Positions 29,051-63,528 of a DNA stretch of 64,000 bases are shown here, one piece after another. The stretch is taken from positions 42,656,001 to 42,720,000 of the forward strand of contig OZ024756.1 of assembly GCA_964016885.1 (NCBI GenBank), in the 5' to 3' direction. A program made the position numbers and the translations under genes. How positions within the stretch are numbered: position 1 is the stretch's first letter; each line of letters starts with the position of its first letter. A model generated the notes under the pieces. The model did no database searches, was not told where the DNA came from, and saw only the letters and a list, made by a program, of their open reading frames with translations. The DNA is from Eledone cirrhosa (taxonomy: Eukaryota).

Positions 29051-29451
29051 GAGATCAGCAAAATATTCTCTCCACCTTTACCAACAAAGATCTGTCTTTT
29101 ATATTGTATACATACATGTGTGTGTGGGTGATGGTGGTGTAAACCATCATTTGACTCCATGGAGACGCTGGTTGCAAAACACGTGTATCATTGACAACGC
29201 AGAAAGAATCCCTTATGGTTGTCTGCCAATCTACTAGAAATAGCAGTCAGGTTGGTTATCACACCTATGATGTTTTTCTTCTTCTTTGATGTTATAAAAT
29301 GTGCATCAATAAACCTTTCTGGGTATGTACCTTTATTCTATTGGTGTACTTACTTTTCAATTGTCAGTTTTCATTTTTGTATGTGTGAAGACTCCAACCA
29401 ACAAACATCTTCCTCTTATAATATGTATATTGCTTCATATTAACTATACTG

Positions 29452-29532
<81 letters not shown>

Positions 29533-29679
29533 AAACAGAATATGTTCTCCATTGTGAATTTACTGATCACTATATATAAACAATCCCTGAGTGTTGTAAT
29601 AATTGACCCAAATATTAGGTGTCAGGAAGGGCATCCAGCTCTAAAGCATTGCCTCAAAAAATCCCATACAATGTGTATA

Positions 29680-31280
29680 AGGCAAAACACAACCAAAATA
29701 GATTTCATCCTCATCAGAAAGCAAGATAGAGTGATGATCATAAACACAAAGTCCCTCCCATGTGAGGAATGTACTACTCAACACAACCTAGTAGTCAGTG
29801 GCTTGCTAATTAAAGCTAAACCAACTTGGAGACAGAAGGCAACTTAGAGGATTGTAGGACACAATCTGGGATGGTAGGACACACCATATTGTAAACCAAG
29901 CATTACAAAATGTTGCCAAACCCAATGACTGGCATAGTATCATCATCAACAACTGCTACAAGAGCAAAGGTGATGCACTAGAGTAACTATTGTGGCATCA
30001 AATTGATGGACCAGGTCATGAAAGTTACAGAGTTATTGTACAACTGATTGGGAATCGAATTAACCTAGATAAGATGAAGTTTAGATTTATGCCAGGAAAA
30101 AGTAACATGGTTGCTCTCTTCCTTGTGAGGCAACTGCAGAAGAAGTACCCCATGAAAAGCAAACTCCTCTACTTGGAATTTGTCGACCTAGAGAAAGCTT
30201 TTGACAGGATGCTCTGTTCTGTAATCTGGTGAATAGTTAACAAACCTGAAGAAGCATAGTGGCTGGTAAGGGCCATGTACAGAGATGTTGTCAGCAAGGT
30301 TAAAATTTATAATGACTGTAGCGAAGAGTTTAGCATGCAAGTTGGGGTCCACTAAGGCTCCATCTTTAGCCCTCTCCTGTTTATTACCGTCCTCCAGGCT
30401 ATAACAAAAAAGTTTAAAACTCTTGGGAACTTCTGTATGCTGATGATCTAACCCTCATAGCTGAATCTATGACAGAACTAGAGAAAAAATTCCTAACCTG
30501 GAATCAAAAGGTCTTAAAGTCAATTTGGCAAAGACCAAAGTTCTAGTAAGTAGTAAGGAAAACAAGACCCTGCTCAGTGTATAAGAAAGGGTGAGTAGAA
30601 ATTCCATCCTCTGTCCCAAATGCTGACTATTGGTACTCAAGAGATGTAGTAGGATCTCAAGTAGGTTAGCTAAGAACATAGAATTTATATGCGGTCATTG
30701 CACAGGAGCAGTAAGTAACACACACCCACATGAAACAAGTGCTATCAAATTATTGAAAGGTTTCATAAAAGCACTTGACAGCTTCTATTACCCTGGTGAT
30801 CATATCAGCAATAGAGATGGTTGCTCTGAATGTACAGTAACCAGAGTGAGAATGGGATGGTAAAAGTTCAGGCTGCTACTACCACTGCTAGCTAAAAAGG
30901 GTTTTCCTTCAAAATGAAAGGCAGATATGATGCATGTATATAAACAACAATGTTACATGGTAGTTAGATGTGGGCGCTGTGTGTAGAGGACCTATGAAGA
31001 TTGCAAAGAAATGAAGCTAGCATGCTTCAAGTTATGTGTAATAGAAATATACATGAATGGCAAAGCATAAATGAACTGAGAGAATCTGGGCATAAGAAGG
31101 ATCAGATGAAATGTGCAGGAAGGGAAATTTTGTTGGTATGAACATGTGATGCATATAAAGGAAGACAGATAAATAACAAGGTGATGAGCGCTCAAAGTTG
31201 ATGGAAGCTAAGGAATAGAAAGACCTAGGAAGGCTTGGGGTGAGGTGAGAAAAGCTGATCTCGCACAATTGCACCTCAAA
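29680..31280 (+). mobile_element. Heavily degenerate RTE LINE
   Basis: FVDLEKAFDR; homologous to 42540-44516. Confidence 0.85.
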
Positions 31281-32235
31281 ACAAGAATTTACCAGCATCA
31301 AAACAGTTTCAGAAACCAGGCTTGGAAAAAGACCATGACACTATCGAGCTGTGTATGGGACCTGAGTGATAAAATACACCTTTCAAGTTGTAATTAAATA
31401 TCTTGAGAAAGGCAAAACTGTACACTGGAGGAGGCCTTACATGCAACCTCTTCTTCCAGGAGACCATAAATATATTTTGTGCAAAGGAATAACTACTCCA
31501 CAAAAAGGGCCAACTTGCTACATCATGTAAACACAGGATATACAAAACTTGCCTCAACCTCAACCTCTTGCATAATCCTGAAGTGATGACAATGGAAGAT
31601 GTAAATATACCAGCAACACAATAGCACTTCACAGTAGTCAAACAAATTATTTCAACAATGGACATAGAAGGTATACATACAGACGACTGAACACATAATA
31701 CTAACTACCACCCTATTGTGTCTACATTGCCAAAAGCTTTCCTGTAGAATAAGGTATACATAAAGATAGGTAGGTCCTCAAACTGTTTGCTTTGTCCTTT
31801 ATTGCAGGTCCTCAAGCAGTGTATGTACTCTGTCCTTTGTTGCATGTCCCAAAACAATCTCTGTATTCTGTCCTCTGTTGCAGGATCTCAAACTGTTTAC
31901 ACTGTCCTTTGTTTCAGGTCCTTCAACTGTTAGCTTGTTCCGTCCCTTGTTGCAGGCCCTCATATTGTCTCTGTGCATTGGAACGTTTAGTCTCAAAAAA
32001 TATCTAGTCAGAAAAGAGCCATTCTTTTAAAAAAAATATAACCTGATCTTGTGTATTAATTGGTTCATATGAAAATTTCACCTTTTAAGGTAATTAAAGA
32101 TTTGGTATTGCCATTGTTGTGAGTTGTTGTTGCAGGTATTGTTGTTGCCATTGTTGTTGTACTTGTTGCTGTTGTAATAGTAGTTGTTGTTGTTATTTTC
32201 TTTCCTGTAAGGTTTTTATCTCATGCAACAGTCAC

Positions 32236-32401
32236 TTACTCAACCCTTTTGGAAGGTTCAGCAGTTCCTTTCCCAGCATGCTTGGGACTTACAGCAGTTA
32301 TTTTCCCAACATTCTTGTTAGATTCGGAAATTATTTTCTCAACATTCTTGTGAGATTCGGTAATTATTTTCCCAACATTCTTGGGAGCTTCGCCGTGAAC
32401 C
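32236..32401 (-). CDS. Ig-cluster copy B, terminal coding exon: cytoplasmic tail with an 11-aa repeat
   Basis: Acceptor tttcaacag; (G)VHG-EAPKNVGKIIT-ESHKNVEKIIS-ESNKNVGKITA-VSPKHAGKGTA-EPSKRVE*. Confidence 0.75.
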
Positions 32402-33849
32402 CTGTTGAAATATAAGCAAAACAGTTGTCAAATATGTTGTCTCTACTGCCGCACACTGTAAGAAACAATCTCTCATTCTGGTGCTCTCTCTCTGTCACTC
32501 TCTCACTATCTGTCATGTATATATATATATCATCATCATCATCATTTCATTTAACGTCTGTTTTTTCCCTGCTTGCAAGGGTGGGACGGGAACTGATTTT
32601 GGCTTGGTTTCTACAGTTGGATGCCCTTCTTAACACCAACCTCATTTACAGTGAGTGCTGGGTGCTTTTTTGCCGTGGCACCTGCACGACCACTTTGTAG
32701 TGGAATGATATGGACCCCAGTCCCTATCATCTCATTTCTACAGCTGAGTAAACTGGAGCAATGTGAAATAAAGTGTCTTGCTCAAGGAAACAACACATCA
32801 CCCGGTCTGAGAATTGAACTCACAACCCTTCGATTACAAGGCCAATGCTCTAACCACTAAGCCATGTGCCTCCATATATATATATATATATATACTGAAT
32901 TCATGACTTATTTAAGTTCATGGTACTAATAGTTTCATAGACTGACCTGTTTAACTATATACAAGGCAATATCATCTGGAAATCAAGACATATCCCCTGA
33001 GCAAGATAACATCTGGAAGTTAAGACTCATCCCCTGGGATGGATCACATCAGGAGGTTATGACACCTCCCCTGGGCTGAATAACATCTGGAGGTTAAAGA
33101 CTTGTTCAGTGGATCACTAAGATCTATACGTTCAAACAGGAACAATTCCAAAGCAATAAAATTGTCTAAAAAAGTGGAATTTTAATTACAATTTCATGTT
33201 TTTATATTGTATATCATGATTTAGTAAATTCTTAGAATGTTCAGGTGACATTTTCTTACTTATACTCCTACACCTGGGCTGAATTTGAAAAATGTGACAT
33301 TAATTATAAAGCTAAGTTTCAATTCTAAAATATAGAACTGTCCAATAGGAAAACTGCTATTCAAATTTCCCATAAACCATTGTTTCAAAGTATATAATGT
33401 ATATATAAAGACTGACTGGGTAAAGTAGTTTGGCATGAAGTCTGTTATTATTGAACCCCAAATCAACCCTGAATAAGTAAGCTTGTTATCAAATATATTT
33501 CTGTTACAACCATGCCACCTTTTTTAAAATCTATGTCTACACTAATGTCTTCTTTCTTGTTTTAAAAGTGGTGGGTGTGATTTGAGAGAGATTTGGCTGC
33601 TATTTTTAACTGATCAAGTGATAACATAGGTATGATATTATTGAGTGTAATTGAGGAAGGTGTGAACAACAAGCAGAGTTAGTACACACTACAAATAAGT
33701 TGTGGTAGGGTGTGAAGGTTGAGGAGGAAGTAAAGTTATAAAAGCAGTAAATGTGACAAAAATGAGGAGAAATAGCTGAGTAGAAGGAAATATTAATTTG
33801 AGGGTTACTCAGATAAAAAGGTAAAAAAGAAAAGAAGAGAATTACTCAC

Positions 33850-33895
33850 CCATTTGTTCCTGTTCCTGATGGTTGCCAAATGTTTTCTTTAAAAC
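33850..33895 (-). CDS. Copy B, 46-nt cytoplasmic exon
   Basis: Acceptor tttcactattcttctag, donor gtgagt; FKENIWQPSGTGTNG; phase 1 to 2 links the TM exon to the last exon in frame. Confidence 0.75.
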
Positions 33896-35138
33896 CTAGA
33901 AGAATAGTGAAAGAAAAATATTACAGGGAAAATAGTTCTAGGTGCTATATAATAATTGTTTCTACATTTGGCACAAGGCCAGCAATAATCCAGTGCATTA
34001 CTGGTACTTTATTTTATCGACCCCGTAAGGGTGAAAGGCAAAGTTAACCTCGGTGGGATTTGAACTCAGAATGGAAAGGGCCGTAACTCTATGCATCAAA
34101 GCATGGCGTCCGACACTCTACCGATACTGCCAATCCATCGCCCTAGGTGATATATAATAATGGTTTCTTATATAGGCACAAAGCCAACAATTTTGGGCAT
34201 GGGGAAAGTTGATTAAATTGACCCCAGTGCGTAACTGGTACTTTATTTTATTGACCCCGTAAGGATGAAAGGCAAAGTTAACCTTGGCAGGATTTGAACA
34301 CAGATCATAAAGGGCCGTAATAGATGATATATAATAATGGTATCTAACATAGGCACAAGGCCAGAAATCTTAGGGGGAGAAAATTAATTATATTCATTAT
34401 AGTACTTTACTGGTATTTTATTTTATTAACCCCAGAAGGATAAAAGGCAAAGCTGACTTCTGTAAAGGTCTAGAATAAATACTGTCAAGTTTTTGTTCAA
34501 CATTGACAACTCTGCCAGTCCAATGTATTGTTATATATACATAATGTCAAGCTATTGACAATATCATCATCATCACAACCATTTTATGTTTATTTTCCCT
34601 TCTTTCATGGTTTTAATGGGTTGTTATATTCTGAGGCTAGACAGGTAGGTCAGATAAATGTGTCTTACTCATACTTTCCATTTTGGCAGGGTTTATATCA
34701 TTGGTTGCCTTTCCTAAAGCCAACCACTTCACAGCATGACCAAGTTCATTTTCTCATGGCACCATCAATACCATCTGATAGGGTCAAATGGATGTTTAAG
34801 GGAAAGTTACATAAAATGAGATAAATATAAGTTAAGGACTGTATATTTGAAAATGTTAAATATATTTATTGTAGATATAACCACATTTTTTAATTAGAAG
34901 CCTTGCTGTGAAAGTAATAAAGTGTCAATTCACTTTCCACTACTCCTGATATGCACAGAAAAACATAAAAGACAAGAGATATATCCCAGTTTTTAGGATA
35001 GGTACACTGTATCTCAGCATGTGGTAACTAAAAAGATTGACGTCAGGAAGGGCATCTGGATGTAAAACATTGTCACAAAACATCACATACAAACAATGAT
35101 AGATCGAAAAGTGAACATAAAAACGATGATGTACTTAC

Positions 35139-35173
35139 ACTTCCTTCTCTTCACAAGACTTCTAATTAAAAAA
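35139..35173 (-). other. Copy B candidate 35-nt micro-exon (FLIRSLVKRRK if entered in phase 2)
   Basis: actacag acceptor, gtaagt donor; conserved as 36 nt in copy A (60142-60177). Confidence 0.55.
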
Positions 35174-35244: not shown

Positions 35245-35361
35245 CTGCTGATTCATTTGATTGGGAAATACCCAAGAACCAAAGGAAAAGCATAGCAAGT
35301 AGGATAGCCCCTAAAACTCCAAGGATGGCACCAATAATAACTCTACCCACTGGTACAATAA
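35245..35361 (-). CDS. Copy B, transmembrane exon
   Basis: tcttgatag acceptor, AG|gttagt donor; VIVPVGRVIIGAILGVLGAILLAMLFLWFLGISQSNESA with a GxxxG motif. Confidence 0.82.
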
Positions 35362-36542
35362 CTATCAAGATAGAAAACAACAACAATAAGAAATGTTTCT
35401 AATATAGGTACATGATTTCAAATTAATGGGGAGAGTTTTAGGTCTGTAATAATTGAGCCAATTTCATTGAACAGTGACCTTATATGGTAGTGTACTGAAG
35501 CAAACTCTTTTGCAAATTTAAACAAAGTTTTAAGGTTGGTTTTCATATTTTATATAACCCTGGCTTCTCTTTCTTCCATCTCCTTTCAAAGGGGATGTTT
35601 GAATTCAGTCTGAATTTCAAGTAGTACACAGTTCAATTGTTGAGTATGTTAGGTAAAGATCCCCTGAAGTCAGGAAAAAGGAACAGAGAACGATGACAAT
35701 ACTGTATCAGAGCTTATAATATAATTGTTTGGATCACTCAATGTAGCTGCTCTCTTTGAAAAGAACCATTTCCATTTATACAATAAATACTATAATATGT
35801 CTGTGAGAGAACTACTACATAGCTGCAACATAAGGTTATGTCATAGCCACCTCTATGACAGCATGGACCCTATTTTAACAAATAAACACTGCACTGGGTA
35901 AGGAGGAAGCTTCTGTGGAATTGTTTAGTTGTAGATCATTCCTGATTAAGAACTGGGATTGATAGCATTTCTATGACTATATAAAATATGTTTTTCAACT
36001 GTCTGATTATGACCATTTACTGAAAGGGTTGGATGTGATTAGAAGGAGATTTGGCTGCTGTTTCTAGCAGGACAAATCATTTGCAGCTTAATCCATCTTA
36101 AAACTTAGTCATATAAAAATAATATTAACAGCAAGCTACATAATAAACTATTAGGTATCTGTCGTCATATAAACTCTAGTTCATTCCAAACTAAAATGAT
36201 AGTTGCTGTGGTTTAACTACAGATCAACTGTGATGGGACAGACCGATGACTAAAGACATTCCAGTTGTGACCATCCCATCATTTTCAGATTATTTAAAGA
36301 ATTCTGTCTTCCTTGAAGAGAATATGGTTATTTAAGCAAGTTGTATGACCATGTAAATATTTCCTATTTGGTGGCAGTGGTAATAAAGGTGGTAGAGTGG
36401 TTACAATGATGATGATGATGAACATGGTTGTAGTGGCAGTCATAGTGATAGTAGTTAAACTGATCAAGATTGTGAAAGTATAAATCCAAACACAAACACA
36501 GCAGTACAGAAACATAATATATATATACCACTGCTAGTATAT

Positions 36543-40859: not shown

Positions 40860-41830
40860 AATCATCATCATCATCATCATCACCGTTTTACGTCCGTTCT
40901 TCCACGCTAGCATGGGTTAGACGGGTTGTCCTGTTGTGGGCAGTGTCTGTTCGGCTGACAATGCCTTGCTCATACAGGAACTGATTTGGCTTGATTTCTA
41001 CAGCTGGATGCTCTTCCTAACACCAACCTCATTTACAGTGAGTGCTGAGTGCTTTTTCGTGGTGCCTACACGTCCACTTTACAGTGTGGGCTGGGTGCTT
41101 TTTTGGCGTGGCACCTCCACGACCACCTTGCAGTGGGAGGGTGTGGGGGCATATTGTCTATATGCTTCAGCTTGTACCCATGGGAGGTCGGGTACTCTGT
41201 ATTACTGCGTGACGCCAGAGGTCACGGTCGTGTGTCATCGCCTTTGAGAGGTGTAATTGGGTAAGGTCGGCTTTTATCACCTCATCCCAGGCCATCTTGG
41301 GTCTCCCCACTCCGCGGTTTACATCGACTTCTAGTGCTCTGCACCTTTTTATGCAGCTGTCATCCTTCATACGCATCACATGTCCATACCAGTGCAACTG
41401 CCTCTCCTGCACACAGCATTTGATTCCTCTTATGCTCAGTCTCTCTCTCAATTCATTTATGCTTTGTCGTTCACGTATATTACTGTTACACATCCATCGG
41501 AGCATGCAGGCTTCATTTCTCTCTAATCTACGTAAGTCTTCCACCTTCACCGCCCAGGTCTCACTACCATGCAACATCGCTGTTCGGATACACGCATCAT
41601 ACAGTCTGCCTTTCATTTTGAGGGAGAAGCCTTTTGCAGCTAGCAGTGGTAGTAGTTCCCTAAACTTCTTCCATCCCGTTCTTACCCTAGTTATTGTACT
41701 TTCTGAACACCCACCTCCGCTGCTAATTCGGTCACCTAGGTAGCAGAAGCTGTCTACTGTTTCTACAGAGCCCTCCCAGAGATTGGTGGTACTTGTTTCC
41801 TGTGGCTGTTTGCTGCTTGCTGTCCCAGCA
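40860..41830 (-). mobile_element. RTE LINE 3' fragment with (GAT)n tail
   Basis: KGRLYDACIRTAMLHGSETW, WYGHVMR, GRPK; CAT repeats at the 3' end. Confidence 0.9.
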
Positions 41831-41860
41831 CAGCTGCTGCATATATATTATATATATAAT

Positions 41861-42011
<151 letters not shown>

Positions 42012-42024
42012 TATATATATATTC

Positions 42025-45000
42025 ATCATCATTCATCATCATCATCGTTTAACGTTCATCTTCCACGCTTGCATGGGTTTGGACAGGAGTTTTCCCACTT
42101 GAGGCAAGATTTGTTGTCTTGCTCGTATAGGACTGTCTGGCGGGTTTTCTACGGCTGGATGCCCTTCCTAACACCAACCACGTTTACAGTGTGGACTGGG
42201 AGGTTTTTACCGTGTTACCTACACGGCCACATTACAGCGTGGACTGTGTGTTTTTTTTGTCGTGACACCTACACGACCTCATTTGTTTCAGACTGGATGT
42301 TCTGGTACCAACATAACTTTACATTTAAAGGGGTGGTGTAGATGGGGTGGGGGTAGTGGGATGGGGGTGTATTTTGTTAGAGGTGCCTACTGACTGTAGT
42401 AGGTTTCACTTTGTACTTAGGTATTACTGTGTAGCGCCAAAGATCTCGGTCCAGTGACATTGTCTTGGAGAGGTGTAAGTGTGTGAGGTCGGAATTTATC
42501 AAGTCGTCCCAGCTTTTTCTGGGTCTGCCTACTCCGTGGCTACCGTCTATTTTTTATCGCCCTGCATTTTTTTATACAGCTGTTGTCTTTCATGTGCATC
42601 ACGTGACCGTTCCAACGTAGTCTTCTCTCGAGTAAACAGCATCTGATCCCTCTTATTCCTAATTTCTCATTTAGTTCATTTATGCTTTGCTGTTCACGTA
42701 TATTACTATTACACATCCAGCGGAGCATGCAAGCTTCGTTTCTCTCCAGTCTGCGTATATCCTCTGCACACAATGCCCAGGTCTCACTGCCATGTAACAT
42801 TGCTGTTCGTATGCAGGCATCATACAGCCTGCCTTTCATTTTTAGGGAGAAACCTTTAGCGGCCAATAGTGATATAAGCTCTCTGAACTTTTTCCATCCC
42901 GTTCTGACTCTGGCTACTGTACTTTCAGAGCACCCACCACGACTGCTGATTTTGTCACCCAGGTAACGGAAGGTGTCCACTATTTCTATAGAACCATCTG
43001 GGCAATGGAAGGAGTTAGTATCCTGTGGGTACTTGCTACTACTTATTGCACCTGATCACCGGCCACATATAAAATCTATGTTTTTGGTTAGTTTACCTGT
43101 GATCCCACTACTTCTTTTATGCACCCATACTTTGCATTTGGGACATAAAATAAAGTTTCTGCCTACTCCTTTCCTACACACTGAGCATGGCCATTTCCCA
43201 GAGGGGACCAATGTCCTATTTTCCTTCCTACATACTAGAACTTTAGTCTCAGACAAGTTAAGTTTAAGGCCTTTTGATTCTAGTCCTTGCTTCCAAGTTT
43301 GGAATTTCTTCTCTAGTTCAGCCATTGATTCAGCTATGAGCATTAGATCATCTGCGTATAGGAGTTCCCACGGGTAGCCGGTCTTGAACTCTTCTGTTAT
43401 AGCCTGAAGGGCAATAATAAATAGGAGGCGGCTAAGGATGGATCCCTGATGAACACCGACTTTTACGCTAAATTCTTCACTATATTCGTTGTTAATTCTA
43501 ACCTTGCTGACTGTTTCTTTATATATGGCTTGTATAGCTCTCATGAGCCATTCATCTACACCTAGTTTTCTAAGAGCCCACCAGATAATGGAGCGGGGGA
43601 CTCTGTCAAAGGCTTTCTCCAAGTCAACAAAAGCTAAGTATAGGGGTTTACTTTTAGCTAGGTACTTCTCCTGTAGTTGTCGTACAAGAAAAACAGCGTC
43701 TGTGGTACGTTTACCTGACGCAAACTGCATTTCATCTAGATCAATTCTGTCTCTGATTAGTTGCACTATAACTTTTTCTGTGACCTTCACGACCTGGTCA
43801 ATTAATTTAATGCCTCTATAGTTTCCCCTATCTAGGGCATCTTCTTTACCCTTGTAGCAGTTAATGATGATGCTGATACGCCAGTCATTTGGTATGACCC
43901 CATTCTGTATGACTTGGTTTACTATCCGGGAGACTATAGTGTGTCCCACCGATCCAGATGCTTTCAGCATTTCAGCAACTATATCCGAAGGCCCAGCTGC
44001 TTTGCCTGTCTTCATATCTTTGATTGCCTTACTTATACTACCTTCAACTTGCACTGCTGATCCCTCTATTGGATCGATTTGGGGCAGACTATCTTTTTCA
44101 CACTTATTCTCCTCATTTAGTAGCCTTTCGTAGTGACACTTCCAAGCTACCTTCTTATCAGCGTCAGTGATGGCAAGTATGCCATCATCATTACATACAC
44201 ACTTCTCCCCGACAATATCACGGTTTTCCTTGACACATTGCCTAGCAATCCTGAATACCTCACGTTTTTGGTCCTCGCGTTGTAGAACATGCTTGAACTT
44301 TCTTTCCTCTGCTTCCCTTCTTGCAAAGTACACTTGCCTCCTAGCTTCCCTCCTCGCCGTTTGATAGTCTTCTCTACTCCCCACATCCCGCCATACTTTC
44401 CAAGCTTGTTTCTTGGCCTTGATTGACTCCTCCACCTTACTGTTCCACCACCATGTTACTATCCTCCTGCCTATAGGTCTGCTCCAGCCACAGATTTTAT
44501 CTGTCGCCTTCAGCAAGTTTACTTTCAGGAATTCCCACTCTTCCTCTATACTGTACGTCTCTAATTGCTCTTCCTTACTGTCAAAAGCATCGAGTGGTAT
44601 GCTTTTAAATTTGTTACTGGTTGTGGGGTCCTTTAACTTCCATATTCTTTTTCTCAGGGTAGTCCTCCTCTGTTGTCAAGAATGTCTTGTCCTGACTATG
44701 AGGTCCCTAACTACGAGGCTATGTTGGGGGGTGCATTCTTCGCGGGGAGGGATTTAGTGTTTACAACCGACACTTTGTCACGTCTTCTGGTAAGGATATA
44801 ATCTATCTGACTGGCGTGTTCCCCTGATCTATAGGTGATCAAGTGATTGTCTCGTTTTTTGAAGTTGGAGATAGTTAGGTTATTTGCATCACAGAATTCC
44901 AGAATTCTGAAGCCTTCCTTATTTCTGGTACCAAACCCATAGCCTCTCTGGATTCCATCATAGCCGTCACAATGTTGTCCAACATGACCATTTAGGTCGC

Positions 45001-45640
45001 CAGCAATAATTATGTAGTCACTGTCGGTTGGTTGGGAGGTAGTGAGCATTAGCAACTCATAGAATCTGTCTTTTATAACGCCAGGCAGTCCAGATTGGGG
45101 TGTGTAAGCGGATATTATTGTCACAGTAGTTCTATTTAGGACAAGTCTTATTTTGATTATTCTGTCATTCACTCTATTTACGTTGATTACCTTATCTACT
45201 CATTTTTCTGCTAACATAATTCCTACTCCACCCAGCCCATTGTCATTTCCCACCCAGAAAAGTTTATAGCATCGTTTTTTACCCATAATGAATCTAGCAG
45301 ACCCACCCCTCCACCTAGTCTCTTGGACGCAACATGCATCAACTTCCTTACGTTCAAGCATCTCTACAACCTCGTTAGAGCGACCTTTTAAAGTGCCTAC
45401 ATTCATGGTACCAACTCTGAAGTTTTGGATTTCGTTTGATTGGTGGAAGGGATGGGATGGAGGTGTAGGGACGGGTGAGGGAGATGGGGTTATGTTTGCC
45501 ATCCGCATCTGAAATAAAGAGGTAACCTTGCATTTTCGTCCGGCCACATGAGGTGAATTAATCTTTATCTTTGACATTGTCATTTGAATCTCCAGATTCT
45601 TCGTTCTCTCCAGAATCCCACAGTCCATCTAGCATATCAA
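42025..45640 (-). mobile_element. Near full-length, frameshifted RTE LINE (AP endonuclease, RT, Cys-rich insert)
   Basis: VGTMNVGTL, CVQETRW, GDLNGHVG, SQIDYIL, FVDLEKAFDRVP, GVHQGS, YADD, CSVCRKGVGRNFILCPKC. Confidence 0.95.
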
Positions 45641-46045: not shown

Positions 46046-46357
46046 CTTCGCCTGAAATATAGATTATTATTGTACGGTTCATGCCATATATTGAACATGT
46101 GACAGATATATAATGATGTGGCCTAATTGTTATGTTATATTTCAGGTGTGACTCTACTGTACTATAACAAATGTCACTTTCTGGAATTGTCACCTTATCT
46201 AACCAAGTACCTAACATAATTTTTTTATGTGATATAACCCATTGAAACTGGACATTCTCTACATATTTTGGTAGATTTGCAGTACATGTGAATGTAGAAA
46301 GCTCTTCAGTTCTATGGTATTTGTTGTGAGACGTCAGATTTTTCAGAGAAGATTTCA
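46046..46357 (-). CDS. Copy B, exon 4: Ig-like domain 2 (312 nt, phase 1-1)
   Basis: Polypyrimidine-ttttcag acceptor, G|gtaagc donor; VKSSLKNL...STFTCTAN...QFQW...DICYSTVES...VTCS. Confidence 0.85.
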
Positions 46358-47442: not shown

Positions 47443-47763
47443 CTTTCACAATCTGCGATGGTTTGGATGTGTTGCCACCAACTGTGCCACATTGATATCT
47501 TGTTGCATCATGGCAATCAGGGTTATCTTTCCAGCAGTGAACCTCTGCATTCCATCCACTAACTACTGGTATTTTACAGTCAAAATCAGGTTCAAAAGAT
47601 TCTTTTTTAAATATATTGCTCTCCTTTTCTATATATATATTTGCGAGCGAATAATTGTTTCTCCTGATGAACACCGGAAGAGTGTGACCAGTTACCTTAC
47701 ATGTTATATTTATTCTAGATGATGATCCAATCTCAAATTCAGGTGTTACAAATATCTCAAAAG
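47443..47763 (-). CDS. Copy B, exon 3: Ig-like domain 1 (321 nt, phase 1-1)
   Basis: ttccatattttag acceptor, G|gtaaag donor; FEIFVTPEFEIGSSSRINITC...FDC...HCWKDNPDCHDATRYQC. Confidence 0.87.
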
Positions 47764-48449
47764 CTAAAATATGGAAGAGGAGAAAATGATTAGACAAAGA
47801 TTTATTTTAAAAATAACATATATAATGGCAGGTAGAGAAAAGCTAAGACAGAGAAGAAAACAATAATAGAAAAAGGAGAGAAAATACAGTTGTGAATGGA
47901 AAAAGAAAAAGAAAATATAAAAAGAAAAAGAAAAAGAAAAAGAAAAAGAAAAAGAAAAAGAAAAAGAAAAAGAAAAAGAAAAAGAAAAAGAAAATAGAAA
48001 ATAGAAAAAGAAAAAGAAGAAGAAAAAGAAGACCAGGTTAAAAAATGCCCAGCTCCCCTCTCAAGGTTTAAGCACATTTCAAAAGCTGTTTGATTCAGCT
48101 CCCTTACTCAGGCTGAAAGATATTTTCAGAGGTCCCTTAGCTCCTTGGTTAGAGCACTCAACTGGTATCTGAGAGATACCAGTTTCGATTCCTATTAGCA
48201 GCAGCAGACAACTACTTTTTCTGTCTTTAAGTGTCTTTACCTTATTCGTAAGCTATTTTATAACAACAGAGTGTCCTTGCAGTTATTTTCTGCGCCTCAG
48301 TATAATACATTTTCTATATACTTTACGTGCTCAGTACTTCATAAGTTCGAAAACTTCAGCTTCGTACAGATGTTTAATTCAGCTCCCTTTTCCAGACGGT
48401 TAGATGTTGTCAGAGGACCCTTAGCTCAATGGCCCACTCTGTCATCTGC

Positions 48450-49510
48450 TAGGCACAAAGGAAGCTAGGCATAGATGAATGGTTACTGACGACTATGCAG
48501 GTCATATACAGAGGTGAAAACAACAAGGTAGCAGTTGGCAATGAGTACAGTGATGAATTAGAAGTGCTTGTAGAAATCCACCAAGGTTTAGTCATCAGTC
48601 CAGTCCTGTTTATCATTCTCCTTCAGTCCTTATCTGGAGAGTTTAAGACTGGCATTCCATGGGAACTCCTGTATGTTGATGATCTAGTCCTTATATCTGA
48701 ATCTACGGGAGAGTTATTGGCAAAATTCAAAGCATGGAAGAAAAACCTAGAATTGAAAGGCCTAAAAGTAAATTTAGCAAAGACAAAAGTCTGAAGTAGA
48801 AAGGAAGGCTAGAAGCTGTTACCATCAGGAAATTGGCCTTGTTCAATGTGTAAAAAGAGGGTGGACAGAAACTCGATAAGTTACATAGTGTTCCCTATGG
48901 ACACACAAGAAAAGTAATGAGATTGTAGGTAGGCTAACAGAGAAGATATGTTTTATGTAGTAGAGGTGTAGGAGGAGTAAGAACTAAGAAAACACGTGAA
49001 GTAGATTCACTCAATTGCCACGGCTTTCAGGTTGTTGACAGATTTTGTTATCTAGATAACCTAATCAGCAGTAGGTGAGGATGCTCTGAAAGAATGGTGG
49101 CTTGGATAAGAACAGGCTGGAAGTTTAGAGAATAACTACCTAAGCTGACAACAAAGGGCTTCTCTCTCAGAATGAAGGGTAGACTGTATGATGCCTGCGT
49201 GCGAACTGCAATGCTACATGGCAATGAAACATGGGCTCTGACTGCAGAAGGCCTACAAAGGCTAAAACTAAACGAAACAAGTATGCTCCGATGGATGTGT
49301 AATGTCAGTGTGCATGTGTGAAGTAGCATGAACGAGCTAAGAGAAAAACTTGGTATGAGATGAATTGGATGTAGAGTGTATAAGAGAAGACTGTATTAGT
49401 ATGAACATGTGATGTCTATGGAAGGTAGCAACAGAGAATCTATTGGAAGAGGTAGATCTAAGGAAACATGGCAGGAAGTAGTGAAGGCTGACCTTCAAAA
49501 GCCAGGACTG
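48450..49510 (+). mobile_element. Degenerate RTE LINE reverse transcriptase fragment
   Basis: EFKTGIPWELLYVDDLVL, GLKVNLAKTKV. Confidence 0.88.
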
Positions 49511-51182: not shown

Positions 51183-51313
51183 TGGGTGGTTCGGAACGAG
51201 CCATTATCACAATCATCATCATCACCATAACTATTACCATAGTCCTCAACAGGTTGGGCAGAAAAAACCGCCGACTGCCCTCATCAACAGTTGTAATAAA
51301 ACAGCAAGACATA
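51183..51313 (-). CDS. Copy B, exon 2: signal-peptide exon
   Basis: MSCCFITTVDEGSRRFFLPNLLRTMVIVMVMMMIVIMARSEPP A|gtaagt. Confidence 0.82.
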
Positions 51314-55207: not shown

Positions 55208-55810
55208 TCATCATCATCATTATTTTACGTCCGCTTTTCCCTGCTTGCAAGGGTGGGCTGGGTCCTATTCAGCACAGTATCTCTCCATTCGTCATCTCCT
55301 CTGTGAGCTTCGGCGATCTAGGTCTGCTCTCACCACATCCGCCCATGATTTTCGTGGTCTTCCTCTACTATGTCTTCCTTCCACCAGGATTTCTTGGCAC
55401 TTCTTTACCCAGCGGTCATCCTCCATGCACATCACATGTCGATATCAACGCAGTCTTCTCGCCCACACCCTATAGCTTATCCCTCTGACACACAGTTTCT
55501 CTCTCAACTCGCCTATGCTTGGTCATCCACGTACATTGACATTGCACATCCATCAGAGCATGCTTGCTTAATTTCTCTCCAGCCGTCGCATATCCTCCAA
55601 AGTTGCTGCCCATGTCTCACTACCATGTACCATCGCGCATTTCACACAGGCATCATATAACCGGCCTTTCGTTCGTAGGGAGAAACCCTTCGTTGTCAAC
55701 AGAGGAAGCAACTCCCTAAACTTCTTCCAACCTGTCCTTATTCTAGATACTATGGCCTCGGAGCACCATCCTCCCTTACTAATCTGAACACCTAGGTACC
55801 GGAAGCTATC
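55208..55810 (-). mobile_element. RTE LINE 3' fragment
   Basis: DSFRYLG, KGRLYDACV, HGSETW; (CAT)n tail. Confidence 0.88.
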
Positions 55811-56339: not shown

Positions 56340-57310
56340 TTCAGTAATCCTGATATGGCCGATCTGGGCTGTATCAGTGATATTAACCCCCAACACACTA
56401 TATCGGACATAATATTTGGCGCCCCTGATGTCTTAGCGGCAATAAACGAAATTAAACACAATTCAGCAGTAGTCCCCGACAGGTTCCCTGCTTGTGTTCT
56501 GAAGGTGTGTCGACACCAACTTGCATCTCCTCTTGCTAATCTGTAGAGGACCTCACTGTATACTGGCTATATTCCTGAAAACTTTCTGTCCCAGTCTGTT
56601 GTCCCAGTTTTCAAAAAGGGATATAGGTCTCTTGCAGTGAACTACCGTTGGATCTCACTCACCTCGCATATTATCAAGGTATTTGAGAGGGTAGTCAGAT
56701 CACAAATAACCCACTTTCTTGAAAGCAACAGCCTGCTTAATTCCAACCAGCTCCTGCATCACTTTGATGATGTTTTGAGAGCTTTGGGAGAGGGCTCCAA
56801 CACTGATGCCATCTACCTTGATTTCAGCATGTCTTTCACAGGGTTGATCATAAGATTCTATTGAAAACACTATCCAATATTGGTGTCTCTGGAAAATTAC
56901 TATAGTGGATCAAGTGTTTCCTGACAGACAGAGCCTAACATGTTGTAGTCGAAGGAGTAACATCAAGTCCAGCCAAAATCAGCAGTGGTGTCCCACAAGG
57001 CACTGTGTTGGGCCCATTTCTTTTCATCATCTACATTAATGACATTACTGACATCATTAAGCACAGTAACATAAGAATATTCGCAGATGATTCCAAGCTC
57101 CAAAGGGTCATCAATGAGGTGGTTGACCGGACTGGCTGTTATCCAATGTGCAGAAATGAATATGCTGTTGAATGAGGATAAGTTTGAGTTAATCCACTTT
57201 GGAAAAAAGGATGCCCTGAAACTACCATACTCTCTTCCTTCAGGTGAAATTCTCATGGCATCTAACAACATCAAAGACTTGGGAGTAATTGTGGACAACA
57301 TAAGCTGGTC
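56340..57310 (+). mobile_element. Degenerate CR1/L2-group LINE reverse transcriptase
   Basis: [38 protein letters not shown]. Confidence 0.88.
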
Positions 57311-57461
57311 TTTTTTTACAGGTCCTCAAAATGTCTTTGTGCATTGCAACGTTTAGTCTAAGAGAAAATATCTGCAGTCAGAAGAGCTATCTTTGTGTTT
57401 TAATACAACCTTGTTTTGTGTATTAATTGGTTCATGTGGATAGTTTCCCTCTGTATGGTAA

Positions 57462-59357
57462 TTAAAGAACTGTTGTTGCTTTTGTTGTTGGTAGTGGTGT
57501 TGTAGTTGACATTAATGGTGGTGGTGGTGGTGTTGTTGTTGTTGGTAGTGGTGTTGTAGTTGACATTAATGGTGGTGGTGGTGGTGTTGTTGGTAGTGGT
57601 GTTGTAGTTGTTGGTAGTGGTGTTGTTGTTGTTGGTAGTGGTGTTGTAGTTGTTGGTAGTGGTGTTGTTGTTGTTGGTAGTGGTGTTGTAGTTGTTGGTA
57701 GTGGTGTTGTTGTTGTTGGTAGTGGTGTTGTAGTTGTTGGTAGTGGTGTTGTTGTTGTTGGTAGTGGTGTTGTAGTTGTTGGTAGTGGTGTTGTAGTTGT
57801 TGGTAGTGGTGTTGTTGTTGTTGGTAGTGGTGTTGTTGTTGTTGGTAGTGGTGTTGTAGTTGTTGGTAGTGGTGTTGTAGTTGTTGGTAGTGGTGTTGTT
57901 GTTGGTAGTGGTGTTGTAGTTGTTGGTAGTGGTGTTGTAGTTGACATTAATGGTGGTGGTGGTGGTGTTGTTGGTAGTGGTGTTGTTGTTGGTAGTGGTG
58001 TTGTAGTTGTTGGTAGTGGTGTTGTAGTTGACATTAATGGTGGTGGTGGTGGTGTTGTTGGTAGTGGTGTTGTAGTTGTTGGTAGTGGTGTTGTTGTTGT
58101 TGGTAGTGGTGTTGTTGTTGGTAGTGGTGTTGTTGTTGTTGGTAGTGGTGTTGTAGTTGTTGGTAGTGGTGTTGTAGTTGTTGGTAGTGGTGTTGTAGTT
58201 GTTGGTAGTGGTGTTGTTGTTGTTGGTAGTGGTGTTGTAGTTGTTGGTAGTGGTGTTGTTGTTGTTGGTAGTGGTGTTGTTGTTGTTGGTAGTGGTGTTG
58301 TTGTTGTTGGTAGTGGTGTTGTTGTTGTTGGTAGTGGTGTTGTTGTTGTTGGTAGTGGTGTTGTAGTTGTTGGTAGTGGTGTTGTTGTTGTTGGTAGTGG
58401 TGTTGTTGTTGTTGGTAGTGGTGTTGTTGTTGTTGGTAGTGGTGTTGTTGTTGTTGGTAGTGGTGTTGTTGTTGTTGGTAGTGGTGTTGTTGTTGTTGGT
58501 AGTGGTGTTGTTGTTGTTGGTAGTGGTGTTGTTGTTGTTGGTAGTGGTGTTGTTGTTGTTGGTAGTGGTGTTGTTGTTGTTGGTAGTGGTGTTGTAGTTG
58601 TTGGTAGTGGTGTTGTAGTTGTTGGTAGTGGTGTTGTTGTTGTTGGTAGTGGTGTTGTTGTTGTTGGTAGTGGTGTTGTTGTTGTTGGTAGTGGTGTTGT
58701 TGTTGTTGGTAGTGGTGTTGTTGTTGTTGGTAGTGGTGTTGTTGTTGTTGGTAGTGGTGTTGTTGTTGTTGGTAGTGGTGTTGTAGTTGTTGGTAGTGGT
58801 GTTGTAGTTGTTGGTAGTGGTGTTGTAGTTGTTGGTAGTGGTATTGTTGTTGTTGGTAGTGGTGTTGTAGTTGTTGGTAGTGGTGTTGTAGTTGTTGGTA
58901 GTGGTGTTGTTGTTGTTGGTAGTGGTGTTGTTGTTGGTAGTGGTGTTGTAGTTGTTGGTAGTGGTGTTGTTGTTGTTGGTAGTGGTGTTGTAGTTGTTGG
59001 TAGTGGTATTGTTGTTGTTGGTAGTGGTGTTGTTGTTGTTGGTAGTGGTGTTGTTGTTGTTGGTAGTGGTGTTGTAGTTGTTGGTAGTGGTGTTGTTGTT
59101 GTTGGTAGTGGTGTTGTTGTTGGTAGTGGTGTTGTAGTTGTTGGTAGTGGTGTTGTTGTTGTTGGTAGTGGTGTTGTAGTTGTTGGTAGTGGTATTGTTG
59201 TTGTTGGTAGTGGTGTTGTTGTTGTTGGTAGTGGTGTTGTTGTTGTTGGTAGTGGTGTTGTAGTTGACATTAATGGTGGTAGTGGTGCTGTCGTTGATAG
59301 TGTGGTAGTCAACAGTAATGGTGGTGGTGTTGTAGATTTTGTTGTTGTTGTTACCAC
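57462..59357 (-). repeat. About 1.9-kb 21/18-bp minisatellite reading as (PLPTTTT)n, inside the terminal exon region of copy A
   Basis: Both flanks are homologous to the copy B terminal exon region (about 31965-32470); a TGA precedes the Pro/Thr frame just after the acceptor at 59407. Confidence 0.9.
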
Positions 59358-60265
59358 TGTTGTTCTTTTTGTTCCTGTATGGGTTTTATCTCAATTGATG
59401 CTCAACCCTGTTGGAAAATAAGCAAAACAGTTGTCAGATATGTTGTCTCTACTGCCACACACTGTAATAAACAACCTTTAATTTAGTCTCTGTCTTATCC
59501 TATATATATATATATATGGGTATCTATGAAAGCATGGAAAAGCCGTCGTAAAAACGATGATGCTGATTTCATGACTTTACTCAAATTCATGGTGCTAATA
59601 GATTCATTGACTGAGCTGTTTTTTCACACACACCTTCTATGTATATTTAACATGTGGAGGTTATAACACTTTCCTTTGGCTGAATAGCATCTGGATGTTA
59701 AAACACCTGCCAAGGGCTGGATATCACATGGGTGTTAAGTGTTCAAAAGAGAAGAGTGTGCTGGTATGGACATGTGATATGTATACCATTGGGTGAAAAA
59801 GTGCCAAGAAATCCCAGTCGAAGAAAGCTGCAGTAAAGGTAGACCAAGGACAAGCTAAGCAGAGGTGATTAGAGCTAATGACAATTGAAGAGAAAAATAA
59901 AACATACAGCAAGACATGTTTTTAAGGGAACAACTTAAAACAAGAAGTTAAAATTAACAAAATTGTTTAAGACTAGTGGTTTTAATTATATTTTCTTGTT
60001 TTAATGTTCTATATGATGTGGTAAGTGGTAACTAAATAATTGACATCAGGAAGGGCATCTGGATGTAAAACATTGTCACAAAACATCACATACAAACACT
60101 GATAGATGGAAAAGTCAACATAAAAACGATAATGTACTTACATTTCCTCTCTCTTCACAAAACTTCTAATTAAAAAACTGTAGTTATATTTATATTAAAT
60201 TAATCTGAAATCATTACAGCTTGTTAGAGAAAAATATTTAAATCTGAAAGTTGTATATTACTAAC

Positions 60266-60382
60266 CTGTTGACTCCTTTAACTGGTAAATAACAAAGAAC
60301 TAAATAAAAAAAAAGACAAGTACGTTAAATGCTATAACTCCAAGGTTGATACCAGCAGTAGTTCCACGACTTGATTCACCAG
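60266..60382 (-). pseudogene. Copy A, TM-homologous exon with TAG at 60300-60302, giving a GPI-signal-like end
   Basis: Ungapped 117-nt alignment to 35245-35361; TGESSRGTTAGINLGVIAFNVLVFFFI*. Confidence 0.7.
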
Positions 60383-61854: not shown

Positions 61855-62750
61855 ATTTGTAGTGTGGTGGGTACCTTTTGTTGTGACTCCTACATGACCA
61901 CTTTACAGTGTGGTGGGTACTTTTTGTTGTGACTCCTACATGACCACTTTACAGTGTGGTGAGTTCTTTTGGTTGTGACTCCTACATGACCACTTTACAG
62001 TGTGGTGAGTTCTTTTGGTTGTGACTCCTACATGACCACTTTATAGTGTGGTGGGTACCTTTTGGCTGTGGCTCCTACATGACCACTTTACAGTGTGGTG
62101 GGTACCTTTTGTTGTGGCTCCTACATGACCACTTTACAGTGTGGTAAGTACCTTTTGTTGTGGCTCCTACATGACCACTTTACAGTGTGGTGAGTACTTT
62201 TGGTTGTGACTCCTACATGACCACTTTATAGTGTGGTGGGTACCTTTTGGTTGTGACTCCTACATGACCACTTTATAGTGTGGTGGGTACCTTTTGGTTG
62301 TGACTCCTACATGACCACTTTATAGTGTGGTGGGTACCTTTTGGTTGTGACTCCTACATGACCACTTTATAGTGTGGTGGGTACCTTTTGGTTGTGACTC
62401 CTACATGACCACTTTATAGTGTGGTGGGTACCTTTTGGTTGTGGCTCCTACATGACCACTTTACAGTGTGGTAAGTACCTTTTGTTGTGGCTCCTACATG
62501 ACCACTTTATAGTGTGGTGAGTTCTTTTGGTTGTGACTGCTACATGACCACTTTACAGTGTGGTTGGTACCTTTTGGTTGTGACTCCTACATGACCACTT
62601 TACAGTGTGGTGGGTACCTTTTGGTTGTGACTCCTACATGACCACTTTACAGTGTGGTGGGTACCTTTTGGTTGTGTCTGCTACATGACCACTTTACAGT
62701 GTAGTGGGTACCTTTTGGTTGTGTCTGCTACATGACCACTTTACAGTGTG
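61855..62750. repeat. 46-47-bp minisatellite (about 19 units) derived from an RTE-associated 3' sequence
   Basis: Unit CTACATGACCACTTTACAGTGTGGTGGGTACCTTTTGGTTGTGACTC; preceded by TTTCTACAGCTGGATGCCCTTCCTAA, as at about 32610, 40995 and 42150. Confidence 0.92.
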
Positions 62751-63220
62751 TACTTGAAGAGTGTTGTTGTGTCACCTACAGCACCACATTGTTTTGAGTG
62801 GATGGTTGTGTATATGTAAGATGGGGAATGGAGAGCTGGCTCTAAGGTGAGACCTTAATTGTAGCTGTGATAATGAAGGTAGTAGAGTGGTTACAATGAT
62901 GATGATGATGAACATGGTTGTAGTGGCAGTCATAGTGATAGTAGTTAAACTGATCAAGATTGTGAAAGTATAAATCCAAACACAAACACAGCAGTACAGG
63001 AATATGTACACACTTAATCAAATATATGAATAATTATGTATTTCAAACATATACATATTCTCACATGGAAACATACAATCATGCATATATACACACATGC
63101 ATGTATTGATAGAGGCAGACATGTATATAAAAATAGGGAACCCCTCTCATCTATACATGCACACACATTCAGATATATATACACAGAAATGTAATACATA
63201 AAAGAAAATAATTTGCTTAC

Positions 63221-63528
63221 TTTTTTCTGTAGGATAGACTAGAAAGGCTAGTTTCATTTTAAATGCTGAACAGGTGATGGTTATATTGGGGTAGTCATCA
63301 ATTGTTACGTTGTAGTCAAACTGTGACTCTAATGAAACATAACAATTGTTAATTTTTGGAACATTCACAGTTTTTTTACTGACTTCTGTTTCGTTCCTTT
63401 GATGTGTTACACTCCATTTAAACTGGACAGACTTTTGCGAATTTGTGGCAACATTTGCACTACATCTGAAGGTAGATATCTGATTAAGTTGCAATTGTCA
63501 GACCACAGATTTTTCAGAGCAGATTTCA
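63221..63528 (-). pseudogene. Copy A, Ig-like domain 2 exon with a frameshift near 63495
   Basis: Same splice sites as B exon 4 but 308 nt long; VKSALKNLWSDN then a frame change to LQLNQISTFRCSAN...QFKW...NNCY...ITCS. Confidence 0.78.

What the first reader, a model, noticed from the sequence alone, without database searches (positions are those of the whole stretch)
59390..60382. Copy A appears to have switched from transmembrane to GPI-anchored form
Seen: the A exon aligns without gaps to the B TM exon, but TGG>TAG ends the protein at TGESSRGTTAGINLGVIAFNVLVFFFI*, with small residues, a spacer and a terminal hydrophobic run. A also lacks about 1.8 kb containing the 46-nt cytoplasmic exon (B about 33220-35020) and lacks the 11-aa tail repeats. 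Known: stop codons in TM exons created GPI-anchored CEACAMs. Inference: paired signalling and tail-less decoy forms. Caveats: A also has an Ig2 frameshift; one extra base in the A9 run at 60306-60314, or a weak donor TA|GTTCTT, would remove the stop and give a short tail ending FLIRSFVKREEMVEHQLR*.
Basis: partly seen in the sequence, partly recalled or inferred. Interest (0 to 1): 0.7.

Follow-up and report, generated by a model that had tools for sequence, protein, structure and literature searches.

The report
Broken octopus two-Ig receptor gene copy
A duplicated cell-surface receptor gene has a stop codon that leaves a GPI-anchor-like tail, but an earlier frameshift means it is most likely a dying gene copy in a fast-evolving octopus immunoglobulin-type family rather than a working lipid-anchored decoy.

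Summary
A's 117-nt membrane exon aligns to B's without gaps, with TAG (60302-60300) where B has TGG. A lacks 1,796 nt holding B's 46-nt exon and lacks the 11-residue repeats. Four transmembrane relatives (three named Octopus) have Trp there and continue FFVI in A's present frame. So the nine-A run is in register and the stop is a derived nonsense change; the extra-base and weak-donor caveats fail.

A 7-nt deletion in Ig2 stops translation long before this exon, so only skipping Ig2 reaches the tail. The GPI-like pattern is largely inherited: 3 of 3 relatives cut at the same Trp pass the same crude rule. B's tail has no tyrosine, and A and B share 30% of Ig2 residues, so this is no signalling/decoy pair. 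Nine relatives already end in GPI-like tails of a different sequence type.

Best reading: a disabled paralogue (0.68). A live or former GPI form remains possible (about 0.2): A's tail is less hydrophobic than its relatives', and one-Ig forms appear among relatives. The family itself is more interesting: uncharacterised, under diversifying selection, with ITIM-like and GPI-like members.

The parts
63221..63528 (-). Copy A Ig2 exon (308 nt; B 312 nt): 7-nt deletion near 63494, premature stop at 63409-63407; splice sites intact, donor 5 of 7 consensus positions (B 6 of 7)
61861..62750 (.). 47-nt tandem repeat, 19 copies, in A's Ig2-TM intron
60266..60382 (-). Copy A membrane exon, 117 nt, phase 1-1, in register with transmembrane relatives
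60300..60302 (-). TAG at the conserved Trp codon (TGG in B; Trp in 4 of 4 transmembrane relatives)
60306..60314 (+). A9 run (T9 on the coding strand, three Phe codons); length is in register with relatives
60142..60177 (-). 36-nt exon-like stretch (35 nt in B); probably intronic: weak acceptor, out of frame with the real donor, diverges at the intron rate
60024..60025 (-). Junction where 1,796 nt present in B (35020-33225) are absent from A
57313..59407 (-). Copy A last exon (3' end not defined): lacks B's repeat block; carries a 21-nt repeat of 83 copies (57522-59266)
51183..51312 (-). Copy B signal-peptide-like exon
47443..47763 (-). Copy B Ig1 exon, open
46046..46357 (-). Copy B Ig2 exon, open
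35245..35361 (-). Copy B transmembrane exon, open
33850..33895 (-). Copy B 46-nt cytoplasmic exon, absent from A
32236..32401 (-). Coding part of copy B last exon with 33-nt (11-residue) repeats; tail has no tyrosine
23635..25963 (-). Copy C: signal exon 25963-25843 and an Ig1 exon (about 23950-23635) with a frameshift and a stop; no Ig2 or membrane exon found
11395..13568 (-). Copy D: signal exon 13568-13448 and an open Ig1 exon (about 11730-11395); later exons not found in the window

Best explanation
A is a disabled member of a tandem array of two-Ig-domain surface receptor genes (signal, Ig1, Ig2, membrane exon, tail) whose named relatives are all Octopus proteins. A and B arose by duplication of a transmembrane gene (shown by shared introns and a weakly supported sister position). 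Their exons were then driven apart by selection for amino-acid change, mostly on B's branch (shown statistically). A then lost function and took a 7-nt deletion in Ig2, a G-to-A nonsense change at the conserved membrane Trp, and probably a 1.8-kb deletion (lesions shown; order, direction of the large deletion and loss of function inferred). A full-exon transcript would stop in Ig2 and probably be degraded (inferred). The GPI-like end is a by-product: cutting this family's membrane exon at that Trp leaves Gly/Ser/Thr/Ala residues followed by a hydrophobic run.
For: The frameshift lies upstream of the TAG, with a stop after 39 codons of Ig2; it is not in a homopolymer. Trp and FFVI are in register in 4 of 4 transmembrane relatives. 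3 of 3 relatives cut at that Trp pass the crude GPI rule. If A were neutral since the duplication about 2.3 disabling hits would be expected in its two visible exons; 2 are seen (P of 2 or more = 0.67). Neighbour C is also broken by a frameshift and a stop. A's last exon carries a 1.7-kb repeat expansion, and B's AATAAA at 31803 has no like counterpart in A, which has only ATTAAA at 57404. The family already has GPI-like ends of another sequence type.
Against: A's remaining tail is less hydrophobic (mean Kyte-Doolittle 2.46 over the last 16 residues) than relatives cut at the same place (3.67-3.89) and falls in the range of the family's natural GPI-like ends (1.16-2.73). Polarised changes on A's branch include Gly to Arg, Ile to Thr and Ile to Asn; 6 resolved plus up to 7 unresolved differences is more than the roughly 5 base changes expected from the intron rate (117 x 0.042, my arithmetic). 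All A splice sites in view are intact, and the Ig2 donor is one position weaker than B's, which would favour skipping. One-Ig versions of two-Ig proteins occur among relatives. A's promoter, signal and Ig1 exons lie outside the window. No expression data.
Confidence: 0.68

Rival explanations
1. A makes, or once made, a GPI-anchored protein: today a one-Ig form by skipping the frameshifted Ig2 exon (flanking phases are 1 and 1, so the frame is kept), or a two-Ig form in alleles without the deletion. GPI transamidase would cut after the Ser or Gly near the start of the membrane exon.
For: Omega candidates 21, 23 and 26 residues from the end with small omega+2 residues, inside the 20-30 residue span given in PMC7125958. 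Tail hydropathy has moved into the family's GPI-like range. P0023 aligns to P0009 without Ig2, and P0025 shares 124 residues with P0028 and lacks Ig2. Stops in transmembrane exons gave GPI signals several times in CEACAMs (PMC2832619). The stop is only 34 nt from the exon end.
Against: The pattern is generic for this exon (3 of 3 relatives). The hydrophobic run is about 14-16 residues with Asn, shorter than the roughly 20 described. Random change in a hydrophobic exon also lowers hydropathy. No stalk exon was found between Ig2 and the membrane exon in A or B. Three horse CEACAMs with stops in the membrane exon were not predicted to be GPI-linked (PMC5856374). The one-Ig relatives are predicted proteins of unknown support.
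Confidence: 0.18
2. A is expressed as a secreted single-Ig protein: signal, Ig1 and a 39-residue remnant ended by the Ig2 frameshift. The TAG and tail losses are then untranslated decay.
For: This is the direct product of the assembled sequence. Truncation in a second Ig exon created apparently secreted CEACAMs in horse and bat (PMC2832619 passages).
Against: The stop lies 186 nt before the end of an internal exon, a typical decay trigger (rule recalled, not tested in molluscs). A's Ig1 cannot be seen. No sign of selection for the truncation could be tested.
Confidence: 0.07
3. Both lesions are assembly errors or rare alleles, and A is an ordinary transmembrane protein with a very short tail.
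For: Tandem arrays rich in simple repeats are error-prone (general knowledge). Read through the stop, A's exon still has a hydrophobic run spanning it (best 19-residue window 2.77).
Against: It needs two independent errors, a 7-nt deletion and a substitution, neither in a homopolymer. The homopolymer next to the stop is in register. Two Asn sit inside the would-be helix.
Confidence: 0.04
4. UAG is edited to UIG (Trp) by ADAR, so A switches between a truncated and a membrane-spanning form.
For: TGG to TAG is a G-to-A change of the kind that restorative editing reverses in coleoids (PMC6881472); stop correction by editing is known in fungi (PMC7306014). Named relatives are all Octopus.
Against: The TAG lies in an unpaired loop and the 301-nt region folds no better than shuffles (z = 0.24; 56 of 100 fold as well). 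None of the 25 longest of 135 inverted repeats shown covers it. Median restorative editing levels in coleoids are below 2.5%. It still needs Ig2 skipping.
Confidence: 0.03

Closest known systems
Primate and pig GPI-anchored CEACAMs (CEACAM5-8 and relatives)
   Same: A stop inside a transmembrane exon leaves a terminal hydrophobic run; tandem family with birth and death of genes and an ITIM-bearing transmembrane prototype (PMC2832619; P0032 has one ITIM-like motif).
   Different: No sequence kinship found. GPI CEACAMs have intact ectodomains and transcript or protein support; A has a frameshifted Ig2 and no expression data. B has no Tyr motif.
Horse CEACAM45, 53 and 54
   Same: Paralogues with a stop in the transmembrane exon (PMC5856374).
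   Different: Those keep complete predicted helices, are transcribed and were predicted not to be GPI-linked; A's stop falls inside the helix.
Uncharacterised Octopus two-Ig proteins (LOC115221679, LOC118766833, LOC106883640 and relatives)
   Same: Same domain plan and Cys/Trp pattern; A's membrane exon matches the transmembrane members at 15-18 of 25 positions.
   Different: Transmembrane members keep a basic cluster after the helix, a proline-rich stalk and, in three of four, Tyr-containing tails; A and B have none of these. GPI-like members end in a different C-terminal sequence with no match in the window.
Unprocessed pseudogenes of birth-and-death immune receptor clusters
   Same: Intron-containing duplicate with a frameshift, a nonsense change and an exon loss, next to another broken copy.
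   Different: Lack of expression is not shown, and A's membrane exon shows some excess of polar changes.

Membership tests
GPI-anchored protein | Open reading frame from a signal peptide to the C-terminal signal | tested here: not met
   With all visible exons translation stops in Ig2; met only if Ig2 is skipped
GPI-anchored protein | N-terminal signal peptide | not testable with these tools
   A's 5' exons lie beyond 64000; B, C and D have signal-like exons
GPI-anchored protein | Small omega and omega+2 residues 20-30 residues from the end | tested here: met
   Three candidates by my crude rule; definition from PMC7125958. The rule also passes 3 of 3 truncated transmembrane relatives, so it discriminates poorly
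GPI-anchored protein | About 10 hydrophilic then about 20 hydrophobic residues, no cytoplasmic tail | tested here: inconclusive
   Hydrophobic run 14-16 residues with Asn; mean hydropathy 2.46
GPI-anchored protein | Positive trained predictor score and PI-PLC release | not testable with these tools
   No GPI predictor or assay available
CEACAM family | Sequence homology to CEACAM N and constant domains | tested here: not met
   No such match in Pfam for 6 window exons or 10 relatives, nor in PDB sequences for B Ig2; 7 of 7 named relatives are Octopus
Paired signalling and decoy receptors | Very similar ectodomains | tested here: not met
   Ig2 identical at 27 of 90 positions; A's Ig1, the likelier binding domain, is outside the window
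Paired signalling and decoy receptors | Partner with ITIM, ITSM or ITAM | tested here: not met
   B tail has 0 Tyr in 70 residues; 1 of 4 transmembrane relatives (P0032) has an ITIM-like motif (motif pattern recalled)
Immunoglobulin superfamily | Beta-sandwich domains with Cys-Trp-Cys core | tested here: met
   Model of relative P0021 (pLDDT 83) has two all-beta domains and one helix; best fold matches are Fab chains and VCAM-1, E about 1e-7, TM-scores 0.3-0.5; A Ig2 Pfam ig E 0.0036, below cut-off
Unprocessed pseudogene | Frame-disrupting mutations in an intron-containing duplicate | tested here: met
   Frameshift and nonsense change
Unprocessed pseudogene | Neutral evolution on its own branch | tested here: inconclusive
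   Lesion count fits neutrality, but A-branch amino-acid changes may exceed it
Unprocessed pseudogene | No functional transcript or protein | not testable with these tools
   No expression data

The most novel reading that the evidence does not exclude
Octopuses have their own CEACAM-like system: a diversifying two-Ig receptor family with ITIM-bearing, tail-modified and GPI-anchored members, in which copy A is a second, independent origin of a GPI anchor, made by a single nonsense change plus polar substitutions in the membrane exon and expressed as a one-Ig protein by skipping its broken Ig2 exon.
Probability: 0.15. Interest if true: 0.65.

Novelty: new member of a known kind. Interest (0 to 1): 0.3.

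Why it matters
As a pseudogene, A is ordinary. If the GPI reading were true it would be a transmembrane-to-GPI switch caught in a mollusc, parallel to the repeated switches in mammalian CEACAMs, and testable with one RT-PCR and one PI-PLC assay. Whatever A's status, the array points to an uncharacterised octopus Ig-type family whose exons change faster than their introns and which includes ITIM-like and GPI-like forms: a candidate pathogen-recognition or self-recognition system. Five literature searches on the family listed no paper about it.

Tried and rejected
Extra base in the A9 run: rejected, since the present frame continues FFVI as in 4 of 4 transmembrane relatives and the shifted frames do not.

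Weak donor plus the 35/36-nt stretch: it gives an open, plausible-looking basic tail in B, which I first favoured. Rejected because relatives run 11 residues past the Trp in the frame of the 117-nt exon, the donor matches 1-2 of 7 consensus positions, the acceptor has 7 of 17 pyrimidines against 12-17 for the exons I accept, and the stretch diverges at the intron rate (2 of 35).

A-to-I editing: no structural support.

Mucin stalk from the 57522-59266 repeat: 3 of 6 frames are stop-free across it, which its composition explains, and no good acceptor leads into the Thr/Pro frame (the one alternative acceptor scored there was placed a few bases off).

Stalk exon between Ig2 and the membrane exon: none found in A or B.

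Empty searches: two word-index protein searches, Rfam, PDB sequences.

Dropped rows: 4 of 31 hits (P0007, P0011, P0019, P0029) gave no match back to the window and were left out. In one search the signal-exon row used wrong coordinates and the membrane rows used a gapped alignment; one search replaces the latter. Whole-exon NG86 ratios were above 1 in 7 of the 8 valid rows but significant in only one. One search stopped on an error; the remainder was rerun. A single-sequence model of A's Ig2 frame was of low confidence (pLDDT 66) and was not used.

Full report
Verdict. The stop codon and the missing segments are real. The claim that copy A has switched to a GPI-anchored form is possible but not the likeliest reading. 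A is most probably a disabled paralogue whose truncated membrane exon looks like a GPI signal by inheritance.

Anatomy. The minus strand holds four related units. B is complete and open: signal exon 51312-51183, Ig1 47763-47443, Ig2 46357-46046, membrane exon 35361-35245, a 46-nt exon 33895-33850 and a last exon from 32401. A is visible from Ig2 (63528-63221) onward; its signal and Ig1 exons would lie beyond the window. C has a signal exon and an Ig1 exon with a frameshift and a stop. D has a signal exon and an open Ig1 exon, and its later exons were not found.

Observation. A's and B's membrane exons are both 117 nt and align without gaps (76 of 117 identical). TAG at 60302-60300 faces TGG. 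B 35020-33225 is absent from A, and the 46-nt exon has no trace in A's intron. B's 33-nt repeat lies in a block absent from A. It has 90% matches between copies and I saw no counterpart in the relatives' tails, so it may be a gain in B rather than a loss in A.

Relatives. A profile of the Ig1 exons found 31 proteins; 27 match back to the window and 4 were dropped. A second search added two more and named seven, all from Octopus vulgaris, O. sinensis or O. bimaculoides and all uncharacterised or hypothetical. That the host is an octopus is inferred from these labels. A model of one relative shows two beta-sandwich domains and one helix, with antibody chains and VCAM-1 as nearest folds. Of the 29 family proteins, 4 have a membrane helix with a tail. 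I picked 9 by eye that end in a hydrophobic run, and all 9 pass a crude omega-site rule. The other 16 look partial or have no clear anchor.

What the relatives settle. All four transmembrane relatives have Trp at A's stop and continue FFVI, as A does in its present frame. So nine A's is the in-register length, the ancestral codon was Trp, and the stop is derived. The weak donor matches 1 of 7 consensus positions against 6 of 7 for the real one.

The GPI outline. A's end has omega candidates 21, 23 and 26 residues from the stop, fitting the definition in PMC7125958 (passages). But P0032, P0016 and P0021 cut at the same Trp also pass; B does not. A keeps the ancestral exon better than B (15-18 against 9-10 of 25 positions), and 14 of 20 polarised differences fall on B's branch (p = 0.12). 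Decay would also do this, so it does not decide. My rule is not a trained predictor.

The frameshift. A's Ig2 exon lacks 7 nt near 63494 and stops after 39 codons. B and the relatives agree in length there. A transcript with all exons never reaches the tail. Skipping Ig2 keeps the frame; A's Ig2 donor is one position weaker than B's, and two pairs of relatives look like one-Ig and two-Ig versions. This is the only route to a GPI product from this allele. About 2.3 disabling hits are expected in the two visible exons if A had been neutral since the duplication, and 2 are seen; this estimate rests on 39 differences in 466 non-coding positions and 5 indels in 501.

The pairing. B's tail has no tyrosine, whereas P0032 has ten and one ITIM-like motif. 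A and B share 27 of 90 Ig2 residues. Paired CEACAMs are described as extracellularly very similar (PMC2832619, passages). A signalling/decoy pair is therefore not supported, with the limit that A's Ig1 is unseen.

Selection. Non-coding DNA differs at 39 of 466 sites between A and B and fourfold sites at 2 of 20, but second codon positions differ at 46 of 137 (p = 0.024). Whole-exon NG86 tests were mostly not significant. In Ig2, 23 of 33 polarised changes are on B's branch (p = 0.035), and the tree gives B a branch of 1.61 against 0.49 for A, as weakly supported sisters (90/88). This points to diversifying selection, mainly on B. Intron homogenisation by gene conversion is less likely because fourfold sites match the intron rate, though that sample is small.

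Editing. A TGG-to-TAG change in a coleoid invites the idea of restorative A-to-I editing (PMC6881472 and PMC7306014, passages). The site is unpaired and the region folds no better than shuffles, so I give this 0.03.

Comparison. It works like the CEACAM route to GPI anchors only in outline, and it is not a CEACAM. Horse CEACAMs show that a stop in the membrane exon need not give a GPI anchor (PMC5856374, passages). I read passages of five papers and no supplements; the other papers were seen as listings only. Five searches on the family listed no paper about it; the library lacks most subscription journals. The ITIM pattern, the splice consensus and the nonsense-decay rule are recalled, not taken from a call.

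Mechanism and odds. Shown: duplication, exon divergence above the intron rate, two frame-breaking lesions, a 1.8-kb segment absent from A. Inferred: loss of function and decay of the transcript (0.68); a GPI product by Ig2 skipping or in another allele (0.18); a secreted one-Ig product (0.07); assembly error (0.04); editing (0.03). Unchecked: raw reads, expression, A's 5' exons, and the sources of most relatives (could not be made).

Noticed in passing
whole array, 11395-63528: Exons diverge far faster than introns across the copies (A-B exons 31-35% against 8% non-coding; C-D upstream DNA 97% identical while Ig1 differs at 28 of 74 residues), including the membrane exon, which is unusual.
   Followed up: partly
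35245-35361 and 32236-33895: B's membrane exon has been remodelled (several Gly-x3-Gly spacings, no basic residues just after the helix) and its tail is tyrosine-free with young 11-residue repeats; B, not A, is the fast-changing copy.
   Followed up: partly
proteins P0032, P0033, P0016, P0021: Transmembrane relatives; P0032 has a Tyr-rich tail with one ITIM-like motif, and P0033 looks like a shorter-tailed version of it.
   Followed up: partly
proteins P0003, P0006, P0008, P0009, P0010, P0013, P0023, P0025, P0026: Relatives ending in GPI-signal-like tails unrelated to the membrane exon. P0008 and P0032 share a longest-contig length, as do P0013, P0033 and P0005, so both types may sit on one chromosome.
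   Followed up: partly
57522-59266: 83 copies of a 21-nt unit in A's last exon; one minus-strand frame reads as a 642-codon Thr/Pro mucin-like stretch behind a single stop, and B has a short Thr-rich equivalent. Probably an expanded microsatellite.
   Followed up: partly
61861-62750: 47-nt tandem repeat, 19 copies at 94% matches, in A's intron.
   Followed up: no
62861-63005 and 36371-36515: 145-nt intronic block 95% identical between A and B, with no exon frame that fits.
   Followed up: partly
35139-35173 and 60142-60177: Exon-like stretch with a strong donor that would encode a basic juxtamembrane segment in B only through a very weak upstream donor; it has the same length as the exon part it would replace (35 nt).
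   Followed up: yes
59758-59947 and 56400-57300: A-only insertion in the last intron resembling a retroelement end, and a reverse-transcriptase-like fragment just past the point where A's 3' homology to B ends.
   Followed up: no
41200-45400, 27990-31280, 48400-49300, 55350-55810: Several related LINE-like copies; the one at about 42500-45400 keeps long open frames (539 and 171 codons) inside B's Ig2-membrane intron.
   Followed up: no
11934-13732 and 24336-26120: 1.8-kb block 97% identical between D and C, marking a recent duplication or conversion.
   Followed up: no
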